Below, one piece after another: positions 48,367 through 58,474 of a stretch of DNA of 64,000 nucleotides (the first letter of the stretch is position 1; every line of letters begins with the position of its first letter). The notes below the pieces were generated by a model. The model was not told where the DNA came from and made no database searches. It was given only the letters and a program-made list of their open reading frames with translations. The stretch is taken from contig JBBRTD010000001.1 in assembly GCA_038244685.1 (NCBI GenBank), positions 67,009 to 131,008 of the forward strand. Reading direction: 5' to 3'. A program made the translations under genes and the position numbers. This DNA comes from Minisyncoccia bacterium. Its GTDB lineage: Bacteria; Patescibacteriota; Minisyncoccia; Phycocordibacterales; UBA9973.

Positions 48367-48546
48367 TTAAATGTTTAAAAATTTTAATAAGTGATAAACA
48401 AGAACCCCTGGCCAAACGATTGATTTTCCAATCGCAAGCATGATGGCACCAAAAGTTACTGCTCCTTTTAAGAAGTAAACAAGCGAACCTATGAGGGCTA
48501 GCCCATAAATACAACCTCCGCTGCCGTGTGATATATTGTTTTTCAT
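48367..48546 (-). CDS. Small hydrophobic protein (59 aa) MKNNISHGSGGCIYGLALIGSLVYFLKGAVTFGAIMLAIGKSIVWPGVLVYHLLKFLNI
   Basis: Hand-found ORF below the track cutoff. Two predicted TM helices. A terminator hairpin lies immediately 3' (48330-48364). Confidence 0.35.
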   Translation of the reverse strand: MKNNISHGSGGCIYGLALIGSLVYFLKGAVTFGAIMLAIGKSIVWPGVLVYHLLKFLNI

Positions 48547-48561
48547 AATATTATTATAATA

Positions 48562-48617
48562 CCGTTTTCTTAAATTGTAATCAATCTGTTGAAAAAGTAA
48601 TCTGATTAAGTCACGGC
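48562..48617 (+). repeat. Copy a of the ~55-nt hairpin repeat family (diverged)
   Basis: CCGTTTTCTTAAATTGTAATCAATCTGTTGAAAAAGTAATCTGATTAAGTCACGGC. Shares the core CCGTTTTCTTAnATTGTAATCAATCTGyTrAAAA with copies at 50463, 50522 and 63832. Confidence 0.7.
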
Positions 48618-48687: not shown

Positions 48688-48993
48688 CTAATTCTTCTCC
48701 CCTTTAAGTATTATCTTATTCTCGAAACCTCCCTTATCTTTCAGTTTCTGAATTCTAAGTTCTTCAACATTTTCATATTCAGGCAATACCTTCAAAGCTT
48801 CAATCACTTCTATAATATCGGCTAGTTCTTCTGGGTCATTTGCCTCCATAAATTCCTTCATCTCTTCCTCGAGTTTTTTAATTAATTCTATTTTATATTC
48901 TTCTGGTGAAGCAATCCTTTTTTCATATACAATCCCCTTTTTATCAAGAATCTCTGGAATGTTGTCTCTAACTAATTTATTATATTTTTCCAT
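48688..48993 (-). CDS. MazG/HisE-like all-alpha nucleotide pyrophosphohydrolase
   Basis: LVRDNIPEIL...EELADIIEVIEAL pattern. ~101 aa. Confidence 0.5.
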   Translation of the reverse strand: MEKYNKLVRDNIPEILDKKGIVYEKRIASPEEYKIELIKKLEEEMKEFMEANDPEELADIIEVIEALKVLPEYENVEELRIQKLKDKGGFENKIILKGEKN

Positions 48994-49526: not shown

Positions 49527-49883
49527 TTATTTCCTTAAAACTGAAGATTGGAACCATCGCTCTTGGAAGAAAACCTTAGTCATTATTTCTTCATCAGATA
49601 AATTAATTCCTTCTGGCACAACCACCAGTTTATCATCATCATTATCAGACCTATGGATTATTGCAATTACTTTACCTTTAGCTTTTTCTAATGGTTGATT
49701 AATACCCAAATAATAAGCATCTAGCTCTTCCCCATCAGGAGATAACACACCTTTTATATAGCCATAATTTACCTCGTATATAAAATTGTGTTTGGGATGC
49801 TTTGTACCCAAAGGTCTATCCATAATAACTTCCACTTCTTTTCCAAGAAAAAATTTTGCGAGTTTTAAAGATTCTGATTCCAT
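49527..49883 (-). CDS. Short inorganic-pyrophosphatase-like protein
   Basis: NYGYIKGVLSPDGEELDAYYLG...AIIHRSDNDDDKLVVV resembles the Ppa motifs NYGFIPQT..DGDPLDVLV and DEGExDDKIIAV, but the protein is only 118 aa. Confidence 0.35.
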   Translation of the reverse strand: MESESLKLAKFFLGKEVEVIMDRPLGTKHPKHNFIYEVNYGYIKGVLSPDGEELDAYYLGINQPLEKAKGKVIAIIHRSDNDDDKLVVVPEGINLSDEEIMTKVFFQERWFQSSVLRK

Positions 49884-49916: not shown

Positions 49917-50450
49917 TTATTTAATCCAATCAATTTTTGTTACAGACCCATTCTCATATCCAGGAATATCATAAAAATATTTAGGTTCCCCTCCTTCTTT
50001 AAGCGTCTCAAGAATTCTACCAACTCCAGCATGGCTGACTAATAAAATATTATCAGATGAATCATTTAATTCTTTAATACAAGAAATTACTCTCTCACTA
50101 AATAGTTTGGGGTTTTCGGCACCAGGAGCATTTACTAAATCAGTTGACGTAGCTTCATGGATAGGAGTGCCAGAAAGATCTCCCATATCATATTCTGTAA
50201 TGCGGTCATCAATAATAATTTGAGATATATCAAAGCCTAATTCTACGGCTATAATTTGTGCTGTTTTCAATGCTCTCTTAAGTGGAGAAGAAATTATTCT
50301 ATTAATTTTTAAATTTTCTTTTTTAATTTCGATTGCTGTGGATAAAGCCTGTTCTTCGCCTTTTTTAGTTAGGATAGAATCATCTCTTTGCCCTGCAAAA
50401 GTATGTCGTATATTAGCTTCGCTCTCCCCGTGTCTTACAAAATATATCAT
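49917..50450 (-). CDS. Histidine phosphatase (PGAM/SixA branch), free-standing paralogue of the IleRS-inserted domain
   Basis: MIYFVRHGESEANI (RHG), IISSPLKRALKTAQI, IIIDDRITEYDMGDLSG and ILLVSHAGVGR. Confidence 0.8.
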   Translation of the reverse strand: MIYFVRHGESEANIRHTFAGQRDDSILTKKGEEQALSTAIEIKKENLKINRIISSPLKRALKTAQIIAVELGFDISQIIIDDRITEYDMGDLSGTPIHEATSTDLVNAPGAENPKLFSERVISCIKELNDSSDNILLVSHAGVGRILETLKEGGEPKYFYDIPGYENGSVTKIDWIK

Positions 50451-50462
50451 TTTTCTATTATA

Positions 50463-50521
50463 CTCCCGTTTTCTTAGATTGTAATCAATCTGTTGAAAAC
50501 GCAGTCCAGCGAAGTCGTGGC
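50463..50521 (+). repeat. Copy b of the ~55-nt hairpin repeat (near-identical to copy d)
   Basis: CTCCCGTTTTCTTAGATTGTAATCAATCTGTTGAAAACGCAGTCCAGCGAAGTCGTGGC. Confidence 0.8.
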
Positions 50522-50580
50522 GCCCGTTTTCTTAGGTTGTAATCAATCTGCTAAAATGCAATCCGGGAAGGGCCAAAATA
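50522..50580 (+). repeat. Copy c of the hairpin repeat (tandem to b, tail diverged)
   Basis: GCCCGTTTTCTTAGGTTGTAATCAATCTGCTAAAATGCAATCCGGGAAGGGCC... Confidence 0.75.
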
Positions 50581-50626: not shown

Positions 50627-51133
50627 TTAAAATTTATTAATATCTATATATTTTTCTACAGCATTAACATCATCTAATTGGTAAAGATGATTTCTATCAG
50701 CTAATTCATTTTTATACGCAACTAAATCATAAGGGTTGATTAATGATATTTCTATACCATCAACTACTTTCATTATATTGGGAAATTTACAATAATTATC
50801 TTTTGTTTGAAACCATTTAGTTTGTTCTTTATTACTCATCATAAGGGTATCGATATCAGTTATATCTATCTCCTGACTATTATAGTTAATTGAGAGAGTA
50901 TTACAGTCCCATTTAGCATTTGAATAATGTTTTGGACCAGCAGTTATATAATCAGAAACTTCTGAAACAATAACCGGAAAATACTTCCCTGAAAGAGAAA
51001 TATCTATATCGTTAACTGATCTAGTTGAGCCATATACATGAGCTGCAAATCCGCCACCTATTCTATAGGGTATATTATTTTTATTTAAAATTGAAACTAT
51101 CCATTTTAGAGCATTTATAGTTTTTTCTTCCAT
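50627..51133 (-). CDS. Nucleotidyltransferase, ANT(2'')-like (aminoglycoside 2''-adenylyltransferase family fold)
   Basis: NIPYRIGGGFAAHVYGSTRSVNDIDISL parallels WIGGGWAIDARLGRVTRKHDDIDL of ANT(2'')-Ia. ~168 aa. Confidence 0.5.
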   Translation of the reverse strand: MEEKTINALKWIVSILNKNNIPYRIGGGFAAHVYGSTRSVNDIDISLSGKYFPVIVSEVSDYITAGPKHYSNAKWDCNTLSINYNSQEIDITDIDTLMMSNKEQTKWFQTKDNYCKFPNIMKVVDGIEISLINPYDLVAYKNELADRNHLYQLDDVNAVEKYIDINKF

Positions 51134-51209: not shown

Positions 51210-51275
51210 GCTGCCAGACCTGGATTGTGAGTACAATTCTAGAAGTTTACATATTCAGTAAAGCTTTGCTATTCT
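51210..51275 (+). repeat. Direct repeat DR1 related to the tRNA-Gln 3' end (distal boundary of the candidate islet)
   Basis: GCTGCCAGACCTGGATTGTGAGTACAATTCTAGAAGTTTACATATTCAGTAAAGCTTTGC is ~80% identical over ~60 nt to 57413-57474. Its first 16 nt are identical to the complement of the tRNA-Gln 3' end. Confidence 0.6.
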
Positions 51276-54348: not shown

Positions 54349-54873
54349 TTAATTATTAATTAAAATACCACTAAGAGCATTTAGTAGAGAAGCAACTATT
54401 CCTATAATTGCAACTGTTTTATATTTTTTACTTTCTTTTGGAAAATTATTAGAAAACTCCAATGTAGCAAAACTTGTTAGAATTCCAAGAGGTGGAAGCA
54501 GCCATGTTAAAATGTTTGACCAAACAATCCATTGTATCAGTGTTATATTTATATTTTTTCTTTTTAAGTACCATTTACCAAACCATTGTCCAATATAGTA
54601 AGCACCGAAGAACATTAAAAGAACAAGTAAGCCAAGATATTTACCGATGAGCATACCACCTATTATACTTACAAAAGAAACTACATAACCAATTATTGTT
54701 TTAAAAGTATTGGTCATTTTTTTTGATTCCTTTTTTTCTGCCACTGATGGTGTTTTTTCTTGTTCTTGTTCTTTATTAATTATCTTTATTCCATTTCCAC
54801 ACGATGAACAAAAGTTAGCTTCTCCTTGAATTTTATTTCCACAATTTTGACAAAACATATTTATTATAAGCAA
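54349..54873 (-). CDS. Zinc-ribbon (N-terminal CxxC-x10-CxxC) membrane protein, paralogue 1 (4 TM)
   Basis: MFCQNCGNKIQGEANFCSSCG, then 4 TM segments. Confidence 0.55.
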   Translation of the reverse strand: MLIINMFCQNCGNKIQGEANFCSSCGNGIKIINKEQEQEKTPSVAEKKESKKMTNTFKTIIGYVVSFVSIIGGMLIGKYLGLLVLLMFFGAYYIGQWFGKWYLKRKNINITLIQWIVWSNILTWLLPPLGILTSFATLEFSNNFPKESKKYKTVAIIGIVASLLNALSGILINN

Positions 54874-55418
54874 TCTGCTTTATTAAATGATACAAAATAG
54901 CTTTGTGCTATATTTTCGACTGTATATGAATATTCCATATTAATATCACGATTAAGTAAATTTTTTGTTGCGTCATTGCCACAAACACTTTTTTTTAAAT
55001 AAACTTTAATTGTTTCATCTGTCACACCTGTTGTATCAACATTTGTAAGAACAGCATGATAACGAATTGCATTTGTTTCTGCTGTGATATCTGTCAACAT
55101 TGTTGAATCATCTAATTTAGTAGGTAATACCATACTTGATTTTGTTTCTTTAACGGCTTGAATAATTAATTCTTCTTTTGACTGAGAACTACTACTTATA
55201 GAGGAATCTCCTTGAATTAAATATTTACCAACCCCTATAGCTAATAAAAAAACAACCACAGAGACTACACTCATTAAAGTAGATTTAATTCCTTTTTTGG
55301 GTTCTTCTGAGATTATTTTTGCCTCTTCCTTTTTTGATTCTTCTTCTACTTTTTGACCACACTTAGAACAAAACTTAGTATTACTATCAAGTTCAGTATT
55401 ACAATTTTTACAAAACAT
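54864..55418 (-). CDS. Zinc-ribbon membrane protein, paralogue 2 (1 TM + ectodomain)
   Basis: MFCKNCNTELDSNTKFCSKCG, then one TM and a Ser-rich ectodomain. Its 5' leader is near-identical to that of paralogue 3. Confidence 0.55.
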   Translation of the reverse strand: MFCKNCNTELDSNTKFCSKCGQKVEEESKKEEAKIISEEPKKGIKSTLMSVVSVVVFLLAIGVGKYLIQGDSSISSSSQSKEELIIQAVKETKSSMVLPTKLDDSTMLTDITAETNAIRYHAVLTNVDTTGVTDETIKVYLKKSVCGNDATKNLLNRDINMEYSYTVENIAQSYFVSFNKADCL

Positions 55419-55468
55419 ATAATTATTTCTTATGATAAAAATTTAAATGACTAATTCAAATTAAAATA

Positions 55469-55978
55469 CTATAAACCATTCTGCCTTAAGCACATTTCAT
55501 ATTCTTTCTCTGTGGCTTCTGTAACATTTGTTTTTTCGGATTGTGGAAGTCTCTCTTTTGTATCCTTTTCTAATAAAAAACATTTAACTGACTGTAACCT
55601 ACCATTCCCTTGATACTCACCTCCAGTTCCGCATTTTTCATCGTATACTTTTTTATTTATATCGGCTTGCTCTTTTATAATACCTAAATCAGCAGGAATT
55701 ACTTCTGTAAACCAAGAACACCCTTTTTTTATATTAGATGGTCTTATTTGAACCCAATAAAAAGTAAATCCAATTATTAAAATAATAGCTACTATTACTA
55801 ACCCCAAAATTGAATGTTTATTTTTTATAAATTGTTCTTCTAAACTAGATTCTGGAATTTGAGATAATTTTCCTTCTTTAACTATATTAACATCAGCAAT
55901 AATTTTAATTTCTTTTCCGCAACTTCTACAAAATTTTGCCTTTTCTTCATTTTCAGTTCCACAATTTTTACAAAACAT
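55469..55978 (-). CDS. Zinc-ribbon membrane protein, paralogue 3 (1 TM + Cys-containing ectodomain)
   Basis: MFCKNCGTENEEKAKFCRSCG, then one TM and an ectodomain with 4 Cys. Confidence 0.55.
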   Translation of the reverse strand: MFCKNCGTENEEKAKFCRSCGKEIKIIADVNIVKEGKLSQIPESSLEEQFIKNKHSILGLVIVAIILIIGFTFYWVQIRPSNIKKGCSWFTEVIPADLGIIKEQADINKKVYDEKCGTGGEYQGNGRLQSVKCFLLEKDTKERLPQSEKTNVTEATEKEYEMCLRQNGL

Positions 55979-56011: not shown

Positions 56012-56815
56012 CTAATTCAAATGAACATATATTTTCCTTTCTCTTATTTTAGAGGCCTCAGCTAATGCATCTGAAATTTCTTTTAAGTGTGAATGTATCA
56101 TTTCGTTAGAAATATGCATAGTATTAAAACCATTTTTGTGAGAATAATAACCTCTATTTAAATCAGCTACGATTTGATGGGGATTCGTTAGATGTTGAAT
56201 TCCATCAACTTCAACATTTAATTTTGCTCTAGGGATTGCTAAATCTATATGCTTATGTCCATCATCTAATTCTAGATATACCCTAATGCCAAGTCTTTCT
56301 AGTGCATCTTTTAAATTATAAGCTTCTTTTGTTGGGCTTGGCTTCTTATGAAAAATTCTTAATGTATTATTTTTATCTAAATAATTTTTTATTAATTCAA
56401 TATCTTTAAAATCTTTTTCCCTTCCTAGTGCTTTTTTAAATTTGCAAAGCTCTTCAAGATTCATAAAAGGAATATCTTCTATTATTTTAGCTGATAAAAT
56501 CGCTTCTTCAACTGTTGTATTATATTTATCCCAATTTAATTTAGGGATAATCTCAAAAATATCTTTTTTTAAATGAATATTTCCATATCTTAATTCCTCT
56601 TCCCAATCTCCTGTACTCTTTAATATTGTATGTAATTTTGCAGTAATGGCTATATCGATATCAATAGCATCTCGAATATTAAGAACATCTAATATGCCGC
56701 TTCCAACAACGACATATTCTCCATATGGAAAATTTAATGATTTAATTTTTTCTATTATGTTCATTTTTATAAAAACACAATTAAGCAAAGAATATCGACT
56801 TTCTCCTAAATTCAA
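56012..56815 (-). CDS. Fusion protein: N-terminal nucleotidyltransferase-fold domain + C-terminal DUF559 (Vsr-like endonuclease fold) domain
   Basis: YVVVGSGILDVLNIRDAIDIDIAI (NTase GS...D.D). C-terminal HIDLAIPRAKLNVEVDGIQH (DUF559-like ...E.DG.QH). Alternative start MNIIEKIKSL at 56764. Confidence 0.4.
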   Translation of the reverse strand: MNLGESRYSLLNCVFIKMNIIEKIKSLNFPYGEYVVVGSGILDVLNIRDAIDIDIAITAKLHTILKSTGDWEEELRYGNIHLKKDIFEIIPKLNWDKYNTTVEEAILSAKIIEDIPFMNLEELCKFKKALGREKDFKDIELIKNYLDKNNTLRIFHKKPSPTKEAYNLKDALERLGIRVYLELDDGHKHIDLAIPRAKLNVEVDGIQHLTNPHQIVADLNRGYYSHKNGFNTMHISNEMIHSHLKEISDALAEASKIRERKIYVHLN

Positions 56816-56833
56816 TTTTTCATTATCATGAAA

Positions 56834-57340
56834 TTATTTATCCTTGGTATTATCAATAATAATATTTGCCTCAGTTAGCAAAGATTTTGTTATTCCAATA
56901 TTCCATGCCCTCATAACACCATGCCATTTCCTAAACTTAAGAAATTGTTCCCAAGTTAATTCAATTATTCTCTTTAATCTATAGTTCTTAAATATCTGAA
57001 CAATAATTACATATTCAAATTTCTTATCTGGTATTGAAGTGCTTCCCTTCTCATCTATATTATGAAAAACACCTGTTGTGTTTCCAGGTTCAGAAATTGT
57101 CTTAATACTATATCTCTCTCCTTTTCTACTTACTGCATCTATATTTTTAGTTCCTTCTGGCGCAGCCTGTAAATTAGGTAGACCACTTATTGAATTATAT
57201 GTTTCTATTACTAAGAATTCCCCTCTCTCTCCAACTATATTGTTTGTCCTAACAAGATTACGTTTTTTAAGTTCTTGTTGGATATCTGCATATCCCGTCC
57301 ACAACTCTTCATTGTTAAATTCTTGTAATTCTATTTTCAT
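56834..57340 (-). CDS. Hypothetical protein (168 aa), operonic with the NTase-DUF559 gene
   Basis: 18-nt gap to the downstream gene. No confident motif (VGERGEFLV...NIDAV...). Confidence 0.4.
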   Translation of the reverse strand: MKIELQEFNNEELWTGYADIQQELKKRNLVRTNNIVGERGEFLVIETYNSISGLPNLQAAPEGTKNIDAVSRKGERYSIKTISEPGNTTGVFHNIDEKGSTSIPDKKFEYVIIVQIFKNYRLKRIIELTWEQFLKFRKWHGVMRAWNIGITKSLLTEANIIIDNTKDK

Positions 57341-57412
57341 ATAATTTAATTTATAAGTGATTAAATATTTTTATATTGTATATTTTAACATTATATTTAA
57401 TTTTAATATATA

Positions 57413-57549
57413 GCTGCCAGACCTGGACCGTGAGTACACTTCTCGAACCTTACAGGTTCAGTACAGCTTTTCCGTTCGTGAGTATACTCACAAGGAAAAG
57501 CGTTTCTCGTCCAGGGCGCAAATGAAGAAATTCATTTGCTTCTGGCAGC
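57413..57549 (-). ncRNA. Degenerate tRNA-Gln-like structured element (~135 nt): tRNA acceptor/T-arm ends enclosing nested hairpins; also carries direct repeat DR2
   Basis: Minus-strand reading: UGCCAGA-AGCAAAUGAAuuucUUCAUUUGC...CUUUUCCuuGUGAGUAUACUCACgaacGGAAAAG...GGUUCGAG-aaguguacucacgg-UCCAGGUCUGGCAGC. The 5' 7 nt and 3' 16 nt are identical to tRNA-Gln. Function unknown. Confidence 0.4.
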
Positions 57550-57590
57550 AATTTAAAAAACCTGCACACAAAGTGAGGTTTTTTAAATTG

Positions 57591-57661
57591 CTGCCAGACC
57601 TGGACTCGAACCAAGATAACCTCCTCCAGAGGGAGGTGTCCTACCATTAGACGATCTGGCA
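57591..57661 (-). tRNA. tRNA-Gln (anticodon CUG)
   Basis: Hand-folded: acceptor UGCCAGA/UCUGGCA (U1-A72, G73 as in bacterial tRNA-Gln), D-arm GUCU/GGAC, anticodon stem CCUCC/GGAGG with loop CUCUGGA, T-arm CUUGG-UUCGAGU-CCAGG. 71 nt with no encoded CCA, followed by a terminator hairpin. Confidence 0.8.
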
Positions 57662-57739
57662 ATAATATTTCATTAACTCAAACATATTACCATAAAACAC
57701 CAAAAAATACAGTTGGAATCATTAAAATTTTAATGTAGA

Positions 57740-58474
57740 ATGGTAGCTATGAATACAGAAATAAAATATGAGCCTAGACATATAACGACAGATGATATTA
57801 AAAATGGTTGTATGACTTTGACAGGTGGAGATGGAGAAGAGACAAAGTTATGTATGATACAAGAAGAATTCCGCCAAGGAATAGATACAGTTACAGATAT
57901 GGGGCCTTCAGTTACTTTTTATGGTTCAGCAAGACTTAAAGAAGATCACCCTGAATATATTAAAGCTCATAAACTTTCTTATAGAATTGCCAAAGAGCTA
58001 GGTTACATTATTATGTCAGGAGGTGGAGCTGGAATTATGGAAGCTGCTAATCGTGGAGCATATGATGCAGGGATTCCCTCAATAGGACTAACAATCAGAC
58101 TACCAAAAGAGCAAGCTACTAATCCTTATGTGACCAAAGAAATACCTTTTCATTTTTTCTTTGCTAGACAAGTCTCAATGTCTTATACAACTGAAGCTTG
58201 TGTCTTCTGTGCTGGTGGCTTCGGAACCTTCGATGAATTATTTGAAATACTAACACACTTACAAACAGGAAAAATAGGTAAAATTCCAGTAATATTATAT
58301 GGCTCAGAATTCTGGAATCCTATTCAAGGTATCATTAAAGAAGTTTTAATTGAAAAGTATAAAACAGTTAACCCAAATGATGTAAATTTATACACAATCA
58401 CAGATGACGAAGATGTAGTTCTAGACATCATCAAGAAAAGTAAAATACGAAACGGTGAAGACGAATTAAATTAA
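57740..58474 (+). CDS. LOG-family protein (cytokinin riboside 5'-monophosphate phosphoribohydrolase / TIGR00730 Rossmann protein)
   Basis: VTFYGSARLKEDHPEY, IIMSGGGAGIMEAANRGA and FCAGGFGTFDELFEILTHLQTGKI. A TTGGAA-N17-TAGAAT promoter lies upstream. Confidence 0.75.
   Translation: MVAMNTEIKYEPRHITTDDIKNGCMTLTGGDGEETKLCMIQEEFRQGIDTVTDMGPSVTFYGSARLKEDHPEYIKAHKLSYRIAKELGYIIMSGGGAGIMEAANRGAYDAGIPSIGLTIRLPKEQATNPYVTKEIPFHFFFARQVSMSYTTEACVFCAGGFGTFDELFEILTHLQTGKIGKIPVILYGSEFWNPIQGIIKEVLIEKYKTVNPNDVNLYTITDDEDVVLDIIKKSKIRNGEDELN

What the first reader, a model, noticed from the sequence alone, without database searches (positions are those of the whole stretch)
56012..57340. Two-gene module: unknown 168-aa protein + nucleotidyltransferase-DUF559(Vsr-like nuclease fold) fusion; candidate defence/toxin system
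The two genes are separated by 18 nt. They sit at the tRNA-proximal end of the islet behind an AT-rich promoter region.

The downstream protein has an N-terminal minimal nucleotidyltransferase signature (GSG...DIDIDIAI), like abortive-infection/CBASS-like and toxin-antitoxin NTases and GrpB/KNTase folds. Its C-terminus resembles DUF559 (LAIPRAKLNVEVDGIQH), a Vsr/restriction-endonuclease-like fold.

NTase + nuclease-fold fusions next to an uncharacterised partner, inside a tRNA-linked islet, are the kind of context in which novel anti-phage systems are found.

A second, ANT(2'')-like NTase (50627..51133) lies just outside the islet.
Basis: inference. Interest (0 to 1): 0.5.

Follow-up and report, generated by a model that had tools for sequence, protein, structure and literature searches.

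The report
Known-type restriction gene beside one-off fusion
The "unknown" 168-aa gene is an ordinary member of the BisI family of restriction enzymes that cut methylated foreign DNA, and its neighbour is a one-off fusion of two small genes that are never found next to it in other genomes, so this is not a new two-gene defence system.

Summary
Both ORFs exist on the minus strand next to tRNA-Gln.

Gene A (56834..57340, 168 aa) is not unknown. It matches PADLOC "Type II methyl-directed restriction enzyme" at E=5.6e-54 over its full length. It carries the published BisI/Bce95I/BceYI signature and weakly hits the Eco15I structure. It is most likely a self-sufficient BisI-family restriction enzyme.

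Gene B really starts at the ATG at 56764 (250 aa), so the gap to A is 69 nt, not 18. It joins two modules:
- An N-terminal minimal nucleotidyltransferase (AlphaFold pLDDT 95.8; fold matches LnuA, TM1012, ANT(2'')-Ia and MenT1).
- A C-terminal DUF559 domain (Pfam score above its cut-off, conserved acidic and His residues present).

In other Patescibacteria both modules are common as separate small genes or in other fusions. Only this genome's protein has both. That held in a 5.8-billion-protein search and among the 150 best-scoring proteins listed by an exhaustive search of 1.84 billion representatives.

A, the N module and the C module never co-occur in 44, 82 and 9 other loci.

The genes do lie in a 6.1-kb low-GC islet bracketed by about 65-nt direct repeats. 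Verdict: new member of a known kind, low interest.

The parts
56834..57340 (-). Gene A: 168-aa BisI-family (Type IIM, methyl-directed) restriction endonuclease. Putative catalytic residues are E41, D68 and S78-I79-K80.
   Evidence: - PADLOC mREase_II PDLC03205, E=5.6e-54, residues 2-164 of 168.
- Eco15I structure 8q5m, E=0.015 with the single sequence and 8.5e-4 with the profile.
- The published BisI-group signature is present...GE, IDA, RYSIKxT, TGVF, FEYxIIV.
- 554 homologues, mostly 165-175 aa.
56012..56764 (-). Gene B: 250-aa fusion protein (stop codon included). The ATG start at 56764 is supported by homologues.
   Evidence: - Exact protein P0001 is called as 250 aa on two other assemblies of the same organism.
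- It is the only protein in the searches that carries both halves.
56360..56764 (-). B N-domain (residues 1-135): minimal Pol-beta-type nucleotidyltransferase fold. Motif G21-S22-G23...D35-x-D37. Other invariant residues are K110, K117 and D121.
   Evidence: - AlphaFold2 mean pLDDT 95.8.
- Foldseek against PDB: LnuA 4fo1, TM1012 2fcl (TMq 0.70), ANT(2'')-Ia 5cfu and MenT1 8an4, with probabilities 0.96-1.0.
- 59 homologues, either standalone proteins of about 137 aa or fused to NUDIX or a pyrophosphatase-like domain.
56015..56359 (-). B C-domain (residues 136-250): DUF559-family PD-(D/E)XK-type endonuclease-like module. Conserved residues, in domain numbering, are E12, D39, E50-x-D52 and H56.
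   Evidence: - Pfam DUF559, 25.2 bits against a 20.6 cut-off. 33 of 34 homologues match DUF559.
- 280 homologues, mostly standalone proteins of 117-124 aa that begin MLKII/MLRII.
- The fold is not confirmed: pLDDT 62.8 and no significant fold match.
57341..57412 (-). AT-rich (5.6% GC) spacer upstream of A. It contains a TATAAT hexamer at 57395..57390.
   Evidence: Sequence and GC content. The consensus scan finds no full sigma-70 match on the - strand.
57413..57477 (-). Left direct repeat of the islet. It is the 3' part of a 141-nt strongly folding RNA-like element (57410..57550) and ends in the same 16 nt as the 3' end of tRNA-Gln.
   Evidence: - repeat finder family D4: 65 nt, 82% identity.
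- Pairwise alignment of the two copies.
- 16-mer search: 3 hits against 0.02 expected.
- Fold z-score -8.4.
51210..51274 (-). Right direct repeat of the islet. It starts just after the stop codon of the DUF1398 gene. The ANT(2'')-like NTase (50627..51133) lies just outside it.
57590..57661 (-). tRNA-Gln(CTG), flanking the islet.
   Evidence: ARAGORN. Rfam tRNA model, 58.3 bits.

Best explanation
The locus holds two unrelated accessory genes that sit side by side in a small genomic islet. It is not a two-component system.

Gene A:
- It is a solitary BisI-family modification-dependent (Type IIM) restriction endonuclease.
- By homology, it should act as a small homodimeric PD-(D/E)XK enzyme (E41, D68, S78-x-K80).
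- By homology, it should bind short GCNGC-like sites that carry several 5-methyl- or 5-hydroxymethyl-cytosines and cut within the site.
- It would therefore destroy incoming phage or foreign DNA with modified cytosines.
- The host's unmodified DNA is not a substrate, so no methyltransferase partner is needed.

Gene B:
- It is a lineage-specific in-frame fusion of two small genes that circulate independently in variable regions of Patescibacteria.
- One is a roughly 137-aa minimal nucleotidyltransferase of the LnuA/ANT(2'')/TM1012/MenT structural group.
- The other is a roughly 117-aa DUF559 endonuclease-like protein.
- Both halves keep their family-invariant catalytic-type residues, so B is probably an active enzyme.
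- My inference, at low confidence, is that B acts on nucleic acid independently of A. The DUF559 half would bind or nick DNA and the NTase half would perform a nucleotidyl transfer.

Shown here: family and fold assignments, uniqueness of the fusion, lack of co-occurrence, and the islet boundaries.

Inferred: methyl-dependence and site specificity of A, and any activity of B.
For: Gene A:
- Full-length PADLOC mREase_II hit at E=5.6e-54, plus four further mREase_II models.
- Hits to Eco15I structure 8q5m.
- The signature quoted in the legend of Xu et al. 2016, Supplementary Fig. [quoted passage not shown] That signature is E/D-LGE, IDAI, RYSIKxT, TG/SVF, FE/DY-IIV.
- Bacillus and Planococcus homologues, 48-51% identical to A, carry the signature exactly.
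- The spacing E...D-X9-SxK lines up without gaps with Eco15I's AD...QIK.
- No ORF in the 64-kb window has DNA methyltransferase motifs.
- A's homologues share no neighbour with this window in 44 genomes, so A moves alone.

Gene B:
- Only P0001, which is this genome's own protein, has both halves among 76 hits.
- All 150 best-scoring proteins listed by the exhaustive phmmer search of 1.84 billion representatives match one half only.
- The few alignments in that search that cross the junction are zinc-ribbon or ASCH fusions to DUF559, not NTases.
- N-domain fold. C-domain family.
- Standalone C-domain genes start MLKII where B reads TLRIF, which shows a seamless fusion junction.
- The same fusion appears in two further independent read-set assemblies.

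No co-occurrence of A, N and C in any locus other than this genome's own.

Islet: about 65-nt direct repeats at 51210 and 57413, and 28% GC.
Against: - Methyl-dependence of A is inferred from family membership only.
- In 5 of 44 genomes, homologues 56-62% identical to A sit inside C5-methylase -> A-homologue -> Vsr cassettes. These look like classical restriction-modification units. A sixth locus (L015, homologue 67% identical) has the order homologue, methylase, Vsr. 15 of 44 loci have a C5 methylase within 6 kb. Some family members may therefore not be methyl-dependent, or the family may have an unexplained tie to m5C methylases and Vsr-type nucleases.
- That tie makes A's adjacency to a Vsr-superfamily (DUF559) domain less obviously accidental.
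- A and B are co-directional, 69 nt apart, with no predicted terminator between them, so they are probably co-transcribed.
- The C-domain fold could not be confirmed.
- The (H/R)(V/I/T/M) methyl-pocket motif could not be mapped onto A.
Confidence: 0.7

Rival explanations
1. A and B cooperate. The BisI-type enzyme works with an accessory Vsr-superfamily nuclease. This would parallel the REase-Vsr cassettes found in other Patescibacteria and the extra C-terminal domain of Eco15I. B would process or repair the nicks, ends or mismatches produced at methylated sites.
For: - Same strand, 69-nt gap, no terminator predicted between them.
- In L024, L025, L027, L028 and L029 a true Vsr gene (PF03852) abuts or overlaps the 3' end of the A homologue.
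- DUF559 and Vsr are placed in one PD-(D/E)XK clade in the superfamily survey (PMC3424549).
- A DUF559 protein acts as a Vsr-like factor in Caulobacter (PMC12907096).
- Eco15I carries an additional C-terminal domain of unknown role.
Against: - None of 44 A-homologue loci carries this DUF559 module or the NTase.
- None of 9 DUF559 loci and none of 82 NTase loci carries an A homologue.
- The profile comparison of the C-domain with the true Vsr proteins is not significant: probability 1.2%, E=0.046.
- BisI-family enzymes, including truncated Eco15I, are active alone.
Confidence: 0.1
2. B on its own is a toxin or abortive-infection effector. It would be a MenT/AbiEii-like nucleotidyltransferase toxin joined to a nuclease. 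A, or another neighbour, would act as its antidote or sensor.
For: - MenT1 toxin (8an4, 8an5) is among the fold matches of the N-domain, with probability 0.96-1.0.
- Standalone DUF559 modules sit beside a Shedu SduA_C domain protein, a HEPN_AbiU2 protein, a restriction-modification cluster and serine recombinases.
Against: - PADLOC has no hit for the NTase half, and only a 12-bit DpdF match for the C half.
- No neighbour of unknown function recurs next to the N-domain gene. The only recurrent real neighbour cluster (12 of 82 loci) has a sequence that reads like a NUDIX hydrolase, judged by eye.
- The N-domain is most often standalone or fused to NUDIX or pyrophosphatase-like domains. That looks like nucleotide metabolism rather than a toxin-antitoxin pair.
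- The best fold matches are antibiotic or small-molecule NTases: LnuA, ANT(2'') and TM1012.
- At 135 aa the domain is far too small for a CD-NTase.
Confidence: 0.12
3. A is a conventional, methylation-sensitive Type II restriction endonuclease whose cognate C5 methyltransferase lies elsewhere in the genome.
For: - Methylase-REase-Vsr cassettes with A homologues 56-62% identical resemble classical systems. L015 (homologue 67% identical) has the same three genes in the order homologue, methylase, Vsr.
- Two characterised BisI homologues cut unmodified DNA.
- Only 64 kb of a contig of at least 327 kb is visible.
Against: - No methyltransferase motif in the window.
- 29 of 44 homologue loci have no C5 methylase within 6 kb.
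- The BisI-group signature is shared with enzymes shown to need 2-4 m5C.
- PADLOC classes the family as methyl-directed.
- BisI itself sits beside an inactive C5 methylase.
Confidence: 0.08
4. B is a recent accidental read-through fusion with no joint function. Either both halves still work separately, or the gene is on its way to decay.
For: - The architecture is a singleton.
- Both modules are prone to many different fusions: NUDIX, pyrophosphatase-like, ASCH, Imm_superinfect, zinc ribbons.
- The junction simply replaces the start Met of the DUF559 gene.
Against: - All family-invariant residues of both halves are intact, and the ORF is uninterrupted.
- This rival overlaps with the best explanation and differs only in whether the fusion itself is adaptive.
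Confidence: 0.3

Closest known systems
BisI / Bce95I / BceYI group of the BisI family (Type IIM modification-dependent restriction endonucleases; Xu et al. 2016, PMC4926085; Szafran et al. 2024, PMC11347163)
   Same: - Gene A has the same size. BisI is 168 aa from its TTG start.
- It has the same single-domain architecture.
- It carries the same signature blocks: ...GE, IDA, RYSIKxT, TGVF, FEYxIIV.
- It has the same E...D-X9-(S/Q)xK catalytic layout.
- It has the same solitary, horizontally mobile gene habit.
   Different: - It comes from a Patescibacteria (CPR) genome, not a Firmicute or Proteobacterium.
- It is 48-51% identical to the Bacillus and Planococcus members seen here.
- Its specificity and its requirement for modification are untested.
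- The methyl-pocket (H/R)(V/I/T/M) motif is not mapped.
Eco15I (PDB 8q5m/8q5o)
   Same: It is the only solved structure that A hits by sequence. The N-terminal dimerisation helix and the first catalytic blocks align.
   Different: - Similarity is weak (E about 1e-2 to 1e-3).
- Eco15I has QIK where A has SIK.
- Eco15I carries an extra C-terminal domain that A lacks.
Small single-domain nucleotidyltransferases: LnuA (4fo1), TM1012 (2fcl/2ewr), ANT(2'')-Ia (5cfu), MenT1 (8an4)
   Same: B's N-domain has the same fold (TMq 0.5-0.7, probability 0.96-1.0) and the same G-S...D-x-D motif.
   Different: - It is shorter (135 aa against 155-195).
- Sequence identity is only 14-21%.
- It has no Pfam assignment.
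- Its substrate is unknown.
- Its usual partners are NUDIX and pyrophosphatase-like domains, not an antitoxin.
DUF559 (PF04480) / Vsr-like PD-(D/E)XK endonucleases (3hrl; Caulobacter VsrA)
   Same: - B's C-domain scores above the DUF559 gathering threshold.
- It keeps the hD...ExDG..H core.
- Standalone relatives are annotated as COG2852 'very-short-patch-repair endonuclease'.
   Different: - Only the C-terminal 60% of the Pfam model is matched.
- It is not a true Vsr: no PF03852 hit, and hhalign against Vsr proteins is not significant.
- It is a compact Patescibacteria-specific module of about 105 aa that fuses promiscuously.
- Its activity is unknown.

Membership tests
BisI family Type IIM restriction endonuclease (gene A) | Sequence homology to family members or models over the full length | tested here: met
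   - PADLOC mREase_II PDLC03205, E=5.6e-54, residues 2-164. Four more mREase_II models also hit.
- Eco15I structure 8q5m, E=0.015 and 8.5e-4.
- Pfam DUF6998 is just below its cut-off, 25.5 against 27.
BisI family Type IIM restriction endonuclease (gene A) | Published signature of the BisI/Bce95I/BceYI group: E/D-LGE, IDAI, RYSIKxT, TG/SVF, FE/DY-IIV | tested here: met
   - The signature text comes from the legend of Supplementary Fig. S3 of PMC4926085.
- A has ERGEF, NIDAV, RYSIKTI, TGVF and KFEYVIIV.
- These blocks are invariant or nearly so in 20 and in 14 homologues.
BisI family Type IIM restriction endonuclease (gene A) | PD-(D/E)XK catalytic set: Glu in helix alpha1, Asp, then (Q/D/E/S)xK 9-12 residues later | tested here: met
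   - E41, D68 and K80 are invariant, and S78 is nearly invariant.
- An ungapped register aligns NIDAVSRKGERYSIK with Eco15I GADAIDADGLKVQIK. The residue roles are by analogy only.
BisI family Type IIM restriction endonuclease (gene A) | Internal-methyl pocket motif (H/R)(V/I/T/M) near the C-terminus | tested here: inconclusive
   - The motif is described in PMC11347163.
- A has an invariant W139-H140 followed by G/S/T/K.
- The alignment to Eco15I does not reliably reach this region.
BisI family Type IIM restriction endonuclease (gene A) | Cleaves GCNGC only when it carries several m5C or 5hmC | not testable with these tools
   This needs enzyme assays on Xp12 DNA, M.Fnu4HI-modified DNA and unmodified DNA.
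BisI family Type IIM restriction endonuclease (gene A) | Solitary gene with no cognate protective methyltransferase | tested here: met
   - No ORF of at least 120 aa in the 64-kb window has C5 motifs I+IV or the (D/N/S)PP(Y/F/W) motif.
- The rest of the genome is not visible.
Pol-beta-type minimal nucleotidyltransferase (B N-domain) | hG[GS]-x(9-13)-D-x-[DE] motif | tested here: met
   The motif reads VVGSGILDVLNIRDAIDIDI. D35 and D37 are invariant, and G21, S22 and G23 are at least 90% conserved in 35 sequences.
Pol-beta-type minimal nucleotidyltransferase (B N-domain) | NTase alpha/beta fold | tested here: met
   - AlphaFold2 pLDDT 95.8, pTM 0.89.
- Foldseek top hits are LnuA, TM1012 (TMq 0.70), ANT(2'')-Ia and MenT1.
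Pol-beta-type minimal nucleotidyltransferase (B N-domain) | Membership of a curated NTase sequence family | tested here: not met
   - B has no Pfam or NCBIfam NTase hit at E<=1.
- Homologues give only weak DUF6036 (11 of 35) and NTP_transf_5 (9 of 35) matches.
MenT/AbiEii-type NTase toxin-antitoxin or CBASS CD-NTase (B N-domain) | Conserved adjacent antitoxin or effector gene, or a match to defence-system models | tested here: not met
   - PADLOC has no NTase-half hit.
- Clustering neighbours in 82 loci gives no recurrent partner of unknown function. The only recurrent real cluster (12 loci) has a sequence that reads like a NUDIX hydrolase, judged by eye.
DUF559 (PF04480) PD-(D/E)XK endonuclease-like (B C-domain) | Pfam DUF559 score above the gathering cut-off | tested here: met
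   - 22.9 bits in the full protein and 25.2 bits for the domain alone, against a cut-off of 20.6.
- 33 of 34 homologues match DUF559 at E<=0.01. 30 of 34 also match REase_MTES_1575 at E<=0.01, where the window domain scores 20.1 bits against that family's 38.2 cut-off.
DUF559 (PF04480) PD-(D/E)XK endonuclease-like (B C-domain) | Conserved core residues (Glu in helix 1; hD; ExDG..H) | tested here: met
   - E12, D39, E50, D52, G53 and H56 are invariant in 24 and in 34 sequences.
- They are also kept in distant zinc-ribbon fusions.
DUF559 (PF04480) PD-(D/E)XK endonuclease-like (B C-domain) | Restriction-endonuclease-like fold | tested here: inconclusive
   - AlphaFold2 pLDDT is 62.8, and the catalytic hairpin region is below 50.
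- Foldseek gives no significant match; I-Bth0305I 3r3p has E=0.56.
- 3hrl by sequence gives only E=0.22-0.26.
Vsr very-short-patch repair endonuclease (PF03852) | Sequence membership (GKPD...F.DGCFWHG core) | tested here: not met
   - No PF03852 hit.
- hhalign against six true Vsr proteins gives probability 1.2%.
Conserved two-gene defence module (A+B) | Co-occurrence of the two genes in other genomes | tested here: not met
   0 of 44 A loci, 0 of 82 N-domain loci and 0 of 9 C-domain loci carry a second component. Only this genome's own contigs L001 and L002 do.

The most novel reading that the evidence does not exclude
The adjacency is not an accident. BisI-type enzymes may have a recurring functional tie to Vsr-superfamily nucleases:
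- True Vsr follows the BisI homologue in methylase-REase-Vsr cassettes of other Patescibacteria.
- A DUF559 domain follows it here.

On this reading the unique NTase-DUF559 fusion is a Rosetta-stone link. It would connect a family of promiscuous mini-domains (NTase, NUDIX, pyrophosphatase-like, ASCH, DUF559) into an uncharacterised DNA-damage or defence pathway of Patescibacteria that acts downstream of cleavage of modified DNA.
Probability: 0.08. Interest if true: 0.55.

Novelty: new member of a known kind. Interest (0 to 1): 0.22.

Why it matters
- It removes a false lead. The candidate novel defence pair resolves into a known single-gene defence enzyme plus an unrelated one-off fusion.
- It shows that BisI-type methyl-directed restriction enzymes are widespread and highly conserved (70-80% identity) in Patescibacteria. 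That implies these tiny-genome bacteria meet phages or foreign DNA with modified cytosines.
- The side observations could interest restriction-modification specialists, but they lie outside the finding itself. They are the methylase-BisI-like-Vsr cassettes and the promiscuous DUF559 and NTase mini-modules.

Tried and rejected
- A joint alignment of B with homologues of both halves (A2) misaligned the C-domain sequences onto the N-domain. I discarded it and modelled the two halves separately.
- The C-domain AlphaFold model was poor (pLDDT 62.8), and its Foldseek search gave nothing significant. I do not use it as fold evidence.
- Profile searches of PDB with the C-domain (A4, A7) and the N-domain (A3) gave no significant sequence hits.
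- NCBIfam gave only spurious S18 and ANT matches.
- PHROGs gave only weak hits of unknown function.
- IMG/VR viral contigs held no relatives of A or of the C-domain.
- Rfam found nothing but the tRNA in 57300..57800.
- A 20-locus 'RadC' neighbour cluster around A homologues was an artefact of single-linkage clustering. A RadC-C5-methylase fusion (L018) had chained RadC and methylase genes together.
- Representative-search hits whose alignments crossed the N/C junction of B (P0415, P0347, P0376 and others) looked like further NTase-DUF559 fusions. On reading the sequences they were zinc-ribbon, ASCH or transmembrane fusions to DUF559.
- I considered and rejected CBASS-like CD-NTase and GrpB/KNTase readings for the N-domain. 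There is no model hit, the domain is only 135 aa, and the best fold matches are LnuA, TM1012 and ANT(2'').
Full report
**What is in the sequence**

On the minus strand, tRNA-Gln(CTG) lies at 57590..57661. It is followed by a terminator-like hairpin and then a 141-nt strongly folding element at 57410..57550. Next comes a 72-nt spacer of 5.6% GC (57341..57412), then ORF A (56834..57340, 168 aa), then ORF B.

Every homologue of the N-terminal half begins MNIIxKIK. The identical protein is called as 250 aa on two other assemblies of the same organism. The real start is therefore the ATG at 56764, and the A-B gap is 69 nt, not 18.

No terminator-like site is predicted between A and B. No full sigma-70-type promoter is found on the minus strand in the AT-rich spacer. 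Only a TATAAT hexamer at 57395..57390 is visible.

**Gene A is a BisI-family methyl-directed restriction endonuclease, not an unknown protein**

- PADLOC's model PDLC03205, "Type II methyl-directed restriction enzyme", matches residues 2-164 at E=5.6e-54. Four sister models also hit.
- The only solved structure it hits is Eco15I (8q5m), at E=0.015 with the single sequence and 8.5e-4 with a 20-sequence profile.
- Xu et al. 2016 give a signature for the BisI/Bce95I/BceYI group in the legend of their Supplementary Fig. S3: E/D-LGE, IDAI, RYSIKxT, TG/SVF, FE/DY-IIV.
- A reads ERGEF, NIDAV, RYSIKTI, TGVF and KFEYVIIV. These blocks are invariant in its homologues.
- Bacillus and Planococcus homologues, 48-51% identical to A, carry the published signature exactly.
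- An ungapped register puts A's D68...S78-I79-K80 on Eco15I's AD...QIK. E41 falls on the helix-alpha1 glutamate whose mutation abolishes Eco15I activity.
- The family is reported to be made of small proteins (150-190 aa) that are usually acquired alone, and its characterised members mostly cut GCNGC carrying two to four m5C. The two solved members are dimers.
- A has 554 homologues at E<=0.001, most of them 165-175 aa. They are 70-80% identical across Parcubacteria/Paceibacterota.
- No ORF in the 64-kb window carries DNA methyltransferase motifs.

**Gene B is a fusion of two independent modules**

*N-terminal half (residues 1-135)*
- The model is very confident: pLDDT 95.8, pTM 0.89.
- Its best PDB fold matches are the small nucleotidyltransferases LnuA, TM1012 (TMq 0.70), ANT(2'')-Ia and the toxin MenT1.
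- The motif G21-S22-G23...D35-x-D37 is conserved. D35 and D37 are invariant, as are K110, K117 and D121.
- It has no Pfam family. Only weak DUF6036 and NTP_transf_5 matches appear in some homologues.

*C-terminal half (residues 136-250)*
- It matches Pfam DUF559 above the gathering score, and so do 33 of 34 homologues.
- E12, D39, E50-x-D52, G53 and H56 (domain numbering) are invariant. They are kept even in distant relatives.
- Its fold could not be confirmed. The model has pLDDT 62.8 and gives no significant fold match.
- It is not a true Vsr. There is no PF03852 hit, and hhalign against six genuine Vsr proteins gives a probability of 1.2%.

**The fusion is a singleton**

- In the 5.8-billion-protein search, 76 proteins matched B. 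59 others carry only the N-domain, 16 others carry only the C-domain, and only P0001, this genome's own protein, has both.
- The N-domain is usually a standalone protein of about 137 aa, or is fused to NUDIX or to a pyrophosphatase-like domain.
- The C-domain has 280 homologues. Most are standalone proteins of 117-124 aa that begin MLKII or MLRII.
- In B the junction reads ...KNYLDKNN-T-LRIFHKK. The DUF559 gene's start methionine has simply been replaced, and the tail and stop codon of the NTase gene have been lost.
- An exhaustive phmmer search of 1.84 billion representatives found 1355 proteins at E<=0.001. All of the 150 best-scoring proteins that it lists match one half only.
- A few alignments in that search ran across the junction. 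On inspection they were zinc-ribbon, ASCH or transmembrane fusions to DUF559, not NTases.

**The pair is not co-conserved**

- 44 genome loci with A homologues (36-79% identical, +-6 kb) contain neither half of B nor any other gene of this window's islet.
- 80 metagenome loci and 2 genome loci with the N-domain contain neither the C-domain nor A.
- 9 loci with standalone C-domain genes contain neither the N-domain nor A.
- Neighbour clustering found no recurrent partner of unknown function for the N-domain.

Standalone DUF559 genes do tend to lie in variable, mobile or defence-type surroundings. Examples are a Shedu SduA_C domain protein with a serine recombinase (L129), a HEPN_AbiU2 protein with a serine recombinase (L131), and a C5-methylase/NgoFVII/Z1 cluster beside prophage genes (L134). 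The defence-island flavour of the region is therefore real.

**The islet**

- A repeat of about 65 nt (82% identity) occurs at 57413..57477 and 51210..51274. Both copies end in the 16 nt that also end tRNA-Gln. That 16-mer has 3 hits in the window against 0.02 expected.
- The repeats bracket 6.1 kb of 28% GC, against 31-36% in the flanks.
- The bracketed segment holds, all on the minus strand: A, B, three paralogous zinc-ribbon membrane proteins, a 250-aa membrane protein, and DUF5677, DUF1801, GNAT and DUF1398 genes.
- No integrase is present.
Its Pfam matches are sub-threshold, and it shows no detectable sequence similarity to B's N-domain.

**A caveat and a lead**

- Among the 44 A-homologue loci, 15 have a C5 cytosine methylase within 6 kb (14 by a motif search plus L015 by Pfam).
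- In L024, L025, L027, L028 and L029 the order is C5-methylase, A-homologue, Vsr. All three are on the same strand and abut or overlap. L015 has A-homologue, methylase, Vsr.
- The homologues in the five cassettes are 56-62% identical to A, and the L015 homologue is 67%. All six keep every signature block.
- Xu et al. noted an inactive C5 methylase beside BisI itself, but said that most homologues lack a companion methylase.
- These cassettes look like classical restriction-modification-Vsr units. Methyl-dependence should therefore not be assumed for every member of the family.
- The cassettes also show a Vsr-type nuclease immediately downstream of a BisI-type gene. That is the one observation that keeps a functional A-B link alive. 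I rate that link at about 0.1, because the specific DUF559 module never accompanies A elsewhere.

**Verdict**

The interpretation as a novel two-gene system is not supported.

- A is a new member of a known family.
- B is a one-off architecture of unknown function, built from two common Patescibacteria mini-genes.
- Overall this is a new member of a known kind, and interest is low.

Noticed in passing
window 57410..57550 (-): A 141-nt element lies directly downstream of tRNA-Gln and its terminator-like hairpin. It folds very stably: -65.6 kcal/mol, z=-8.4 against shuffles. It could be a tRNA-derived structured RNA or an attachment site.
   Followed up: partly
window 51210..51274 and 57413..57477: Direct repeats of about 65 nt (82% identical) bracket a 6.1-kb, 28%-GC islet with no integrase. 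Each repeat ends in the 3'-terminal 16 nt of tRNA-Gln. The left copy is the 3' part of the structured element above. The pattern looks like integration into the 3' end of an RNA gene followed by loss of the recombinase.
   Followed up: partly
L024 2796-4845; L025 1104-3019; L027 4752-6882; L028 4843-6871; L029 4979-6916; L015 6001-8007: In six other Patescibacteria genomes the BisI-like gene sits in a tight same-strand cassette with a C5 cytosine methylase (PF00145) and a true Vsr (PF03852). Five have the order methylase, BisI-like, Vsr, and L015 has BisI-like, methylase, Vsr. 15 of 44 BisI-like loci have a C5 methylase within 6 kb. This is odd for a supposedly m5C-dependent enzyme. The BisI papers read here describe only an adjacent, inactive C5 methylase next to BisI and its identical Bacillus copies, and do not mention Vsr.
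   Followed up: partly
L018 574-2238: A 555-aa protein fuses a RadC-like JAB domain (PF04002 plus UPF0758_N) to a C5 cytosine DNA methylase. It lies about 1.1 kb upstream of a BisI-like gene.
   Followed up: no
window 49527..49883 (-): A 118-aa pyrophosphatase-like ORF (PF00719) is 79% identical to the C-terminal half of P0027. In another organism P0027 is fused to the same NTase module that forms B's N-terminus. In this genome the NTase's alternative fusion partner is a separate gene 6 kb away. It sits beside a histidine phosphatase (49917..50450) and an ORF that looks MazG-like by eye but has no Pfam hit (48688..48993).
   Followed up: partly
proteins P0045, P0034, P0048, P0025, P0415, P0347 and others: The roughly 105-aa DUF559 module is highly promiscuous. 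It is found standalone and also fused to NUDIX, ASCH, the Imm_superinfect transmembrane domain, double zinc ribbons and unknown N-terminal domains. 567 cluster representatives match one or other half of B at E<=1e-10. Standalone copies sit beside a Shedu SduA_C domain protein, a HEPN_AbiU2 protein, a restriction-modification cluster and large serine recombinases (L129, L131, L134).
   Followed up: partly
window 54349..55978 (-): Three tandem paralogous genes lie immediately downstream of B. Each encodes an N-terminal zinc ribbon (PF13240) followed by a membrane or extracytoplasmic region (174, 184 and 169 aa). Their 5' ends recur at exactly 560-nt spacing (repeat family D1).
   Followed up: no
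window 48524..48617, 50428..50521 and 50523..50556: A repeated intergenic element of about 94 nt (73% identical), with a 34-nt core present three times (CCCGTTTTCTTAGATTGTAATCAATCTGTTGAAA), lies upstream of several small minus-strand genes. It may be a shared regulatory or promoter region.
   Followed up: no
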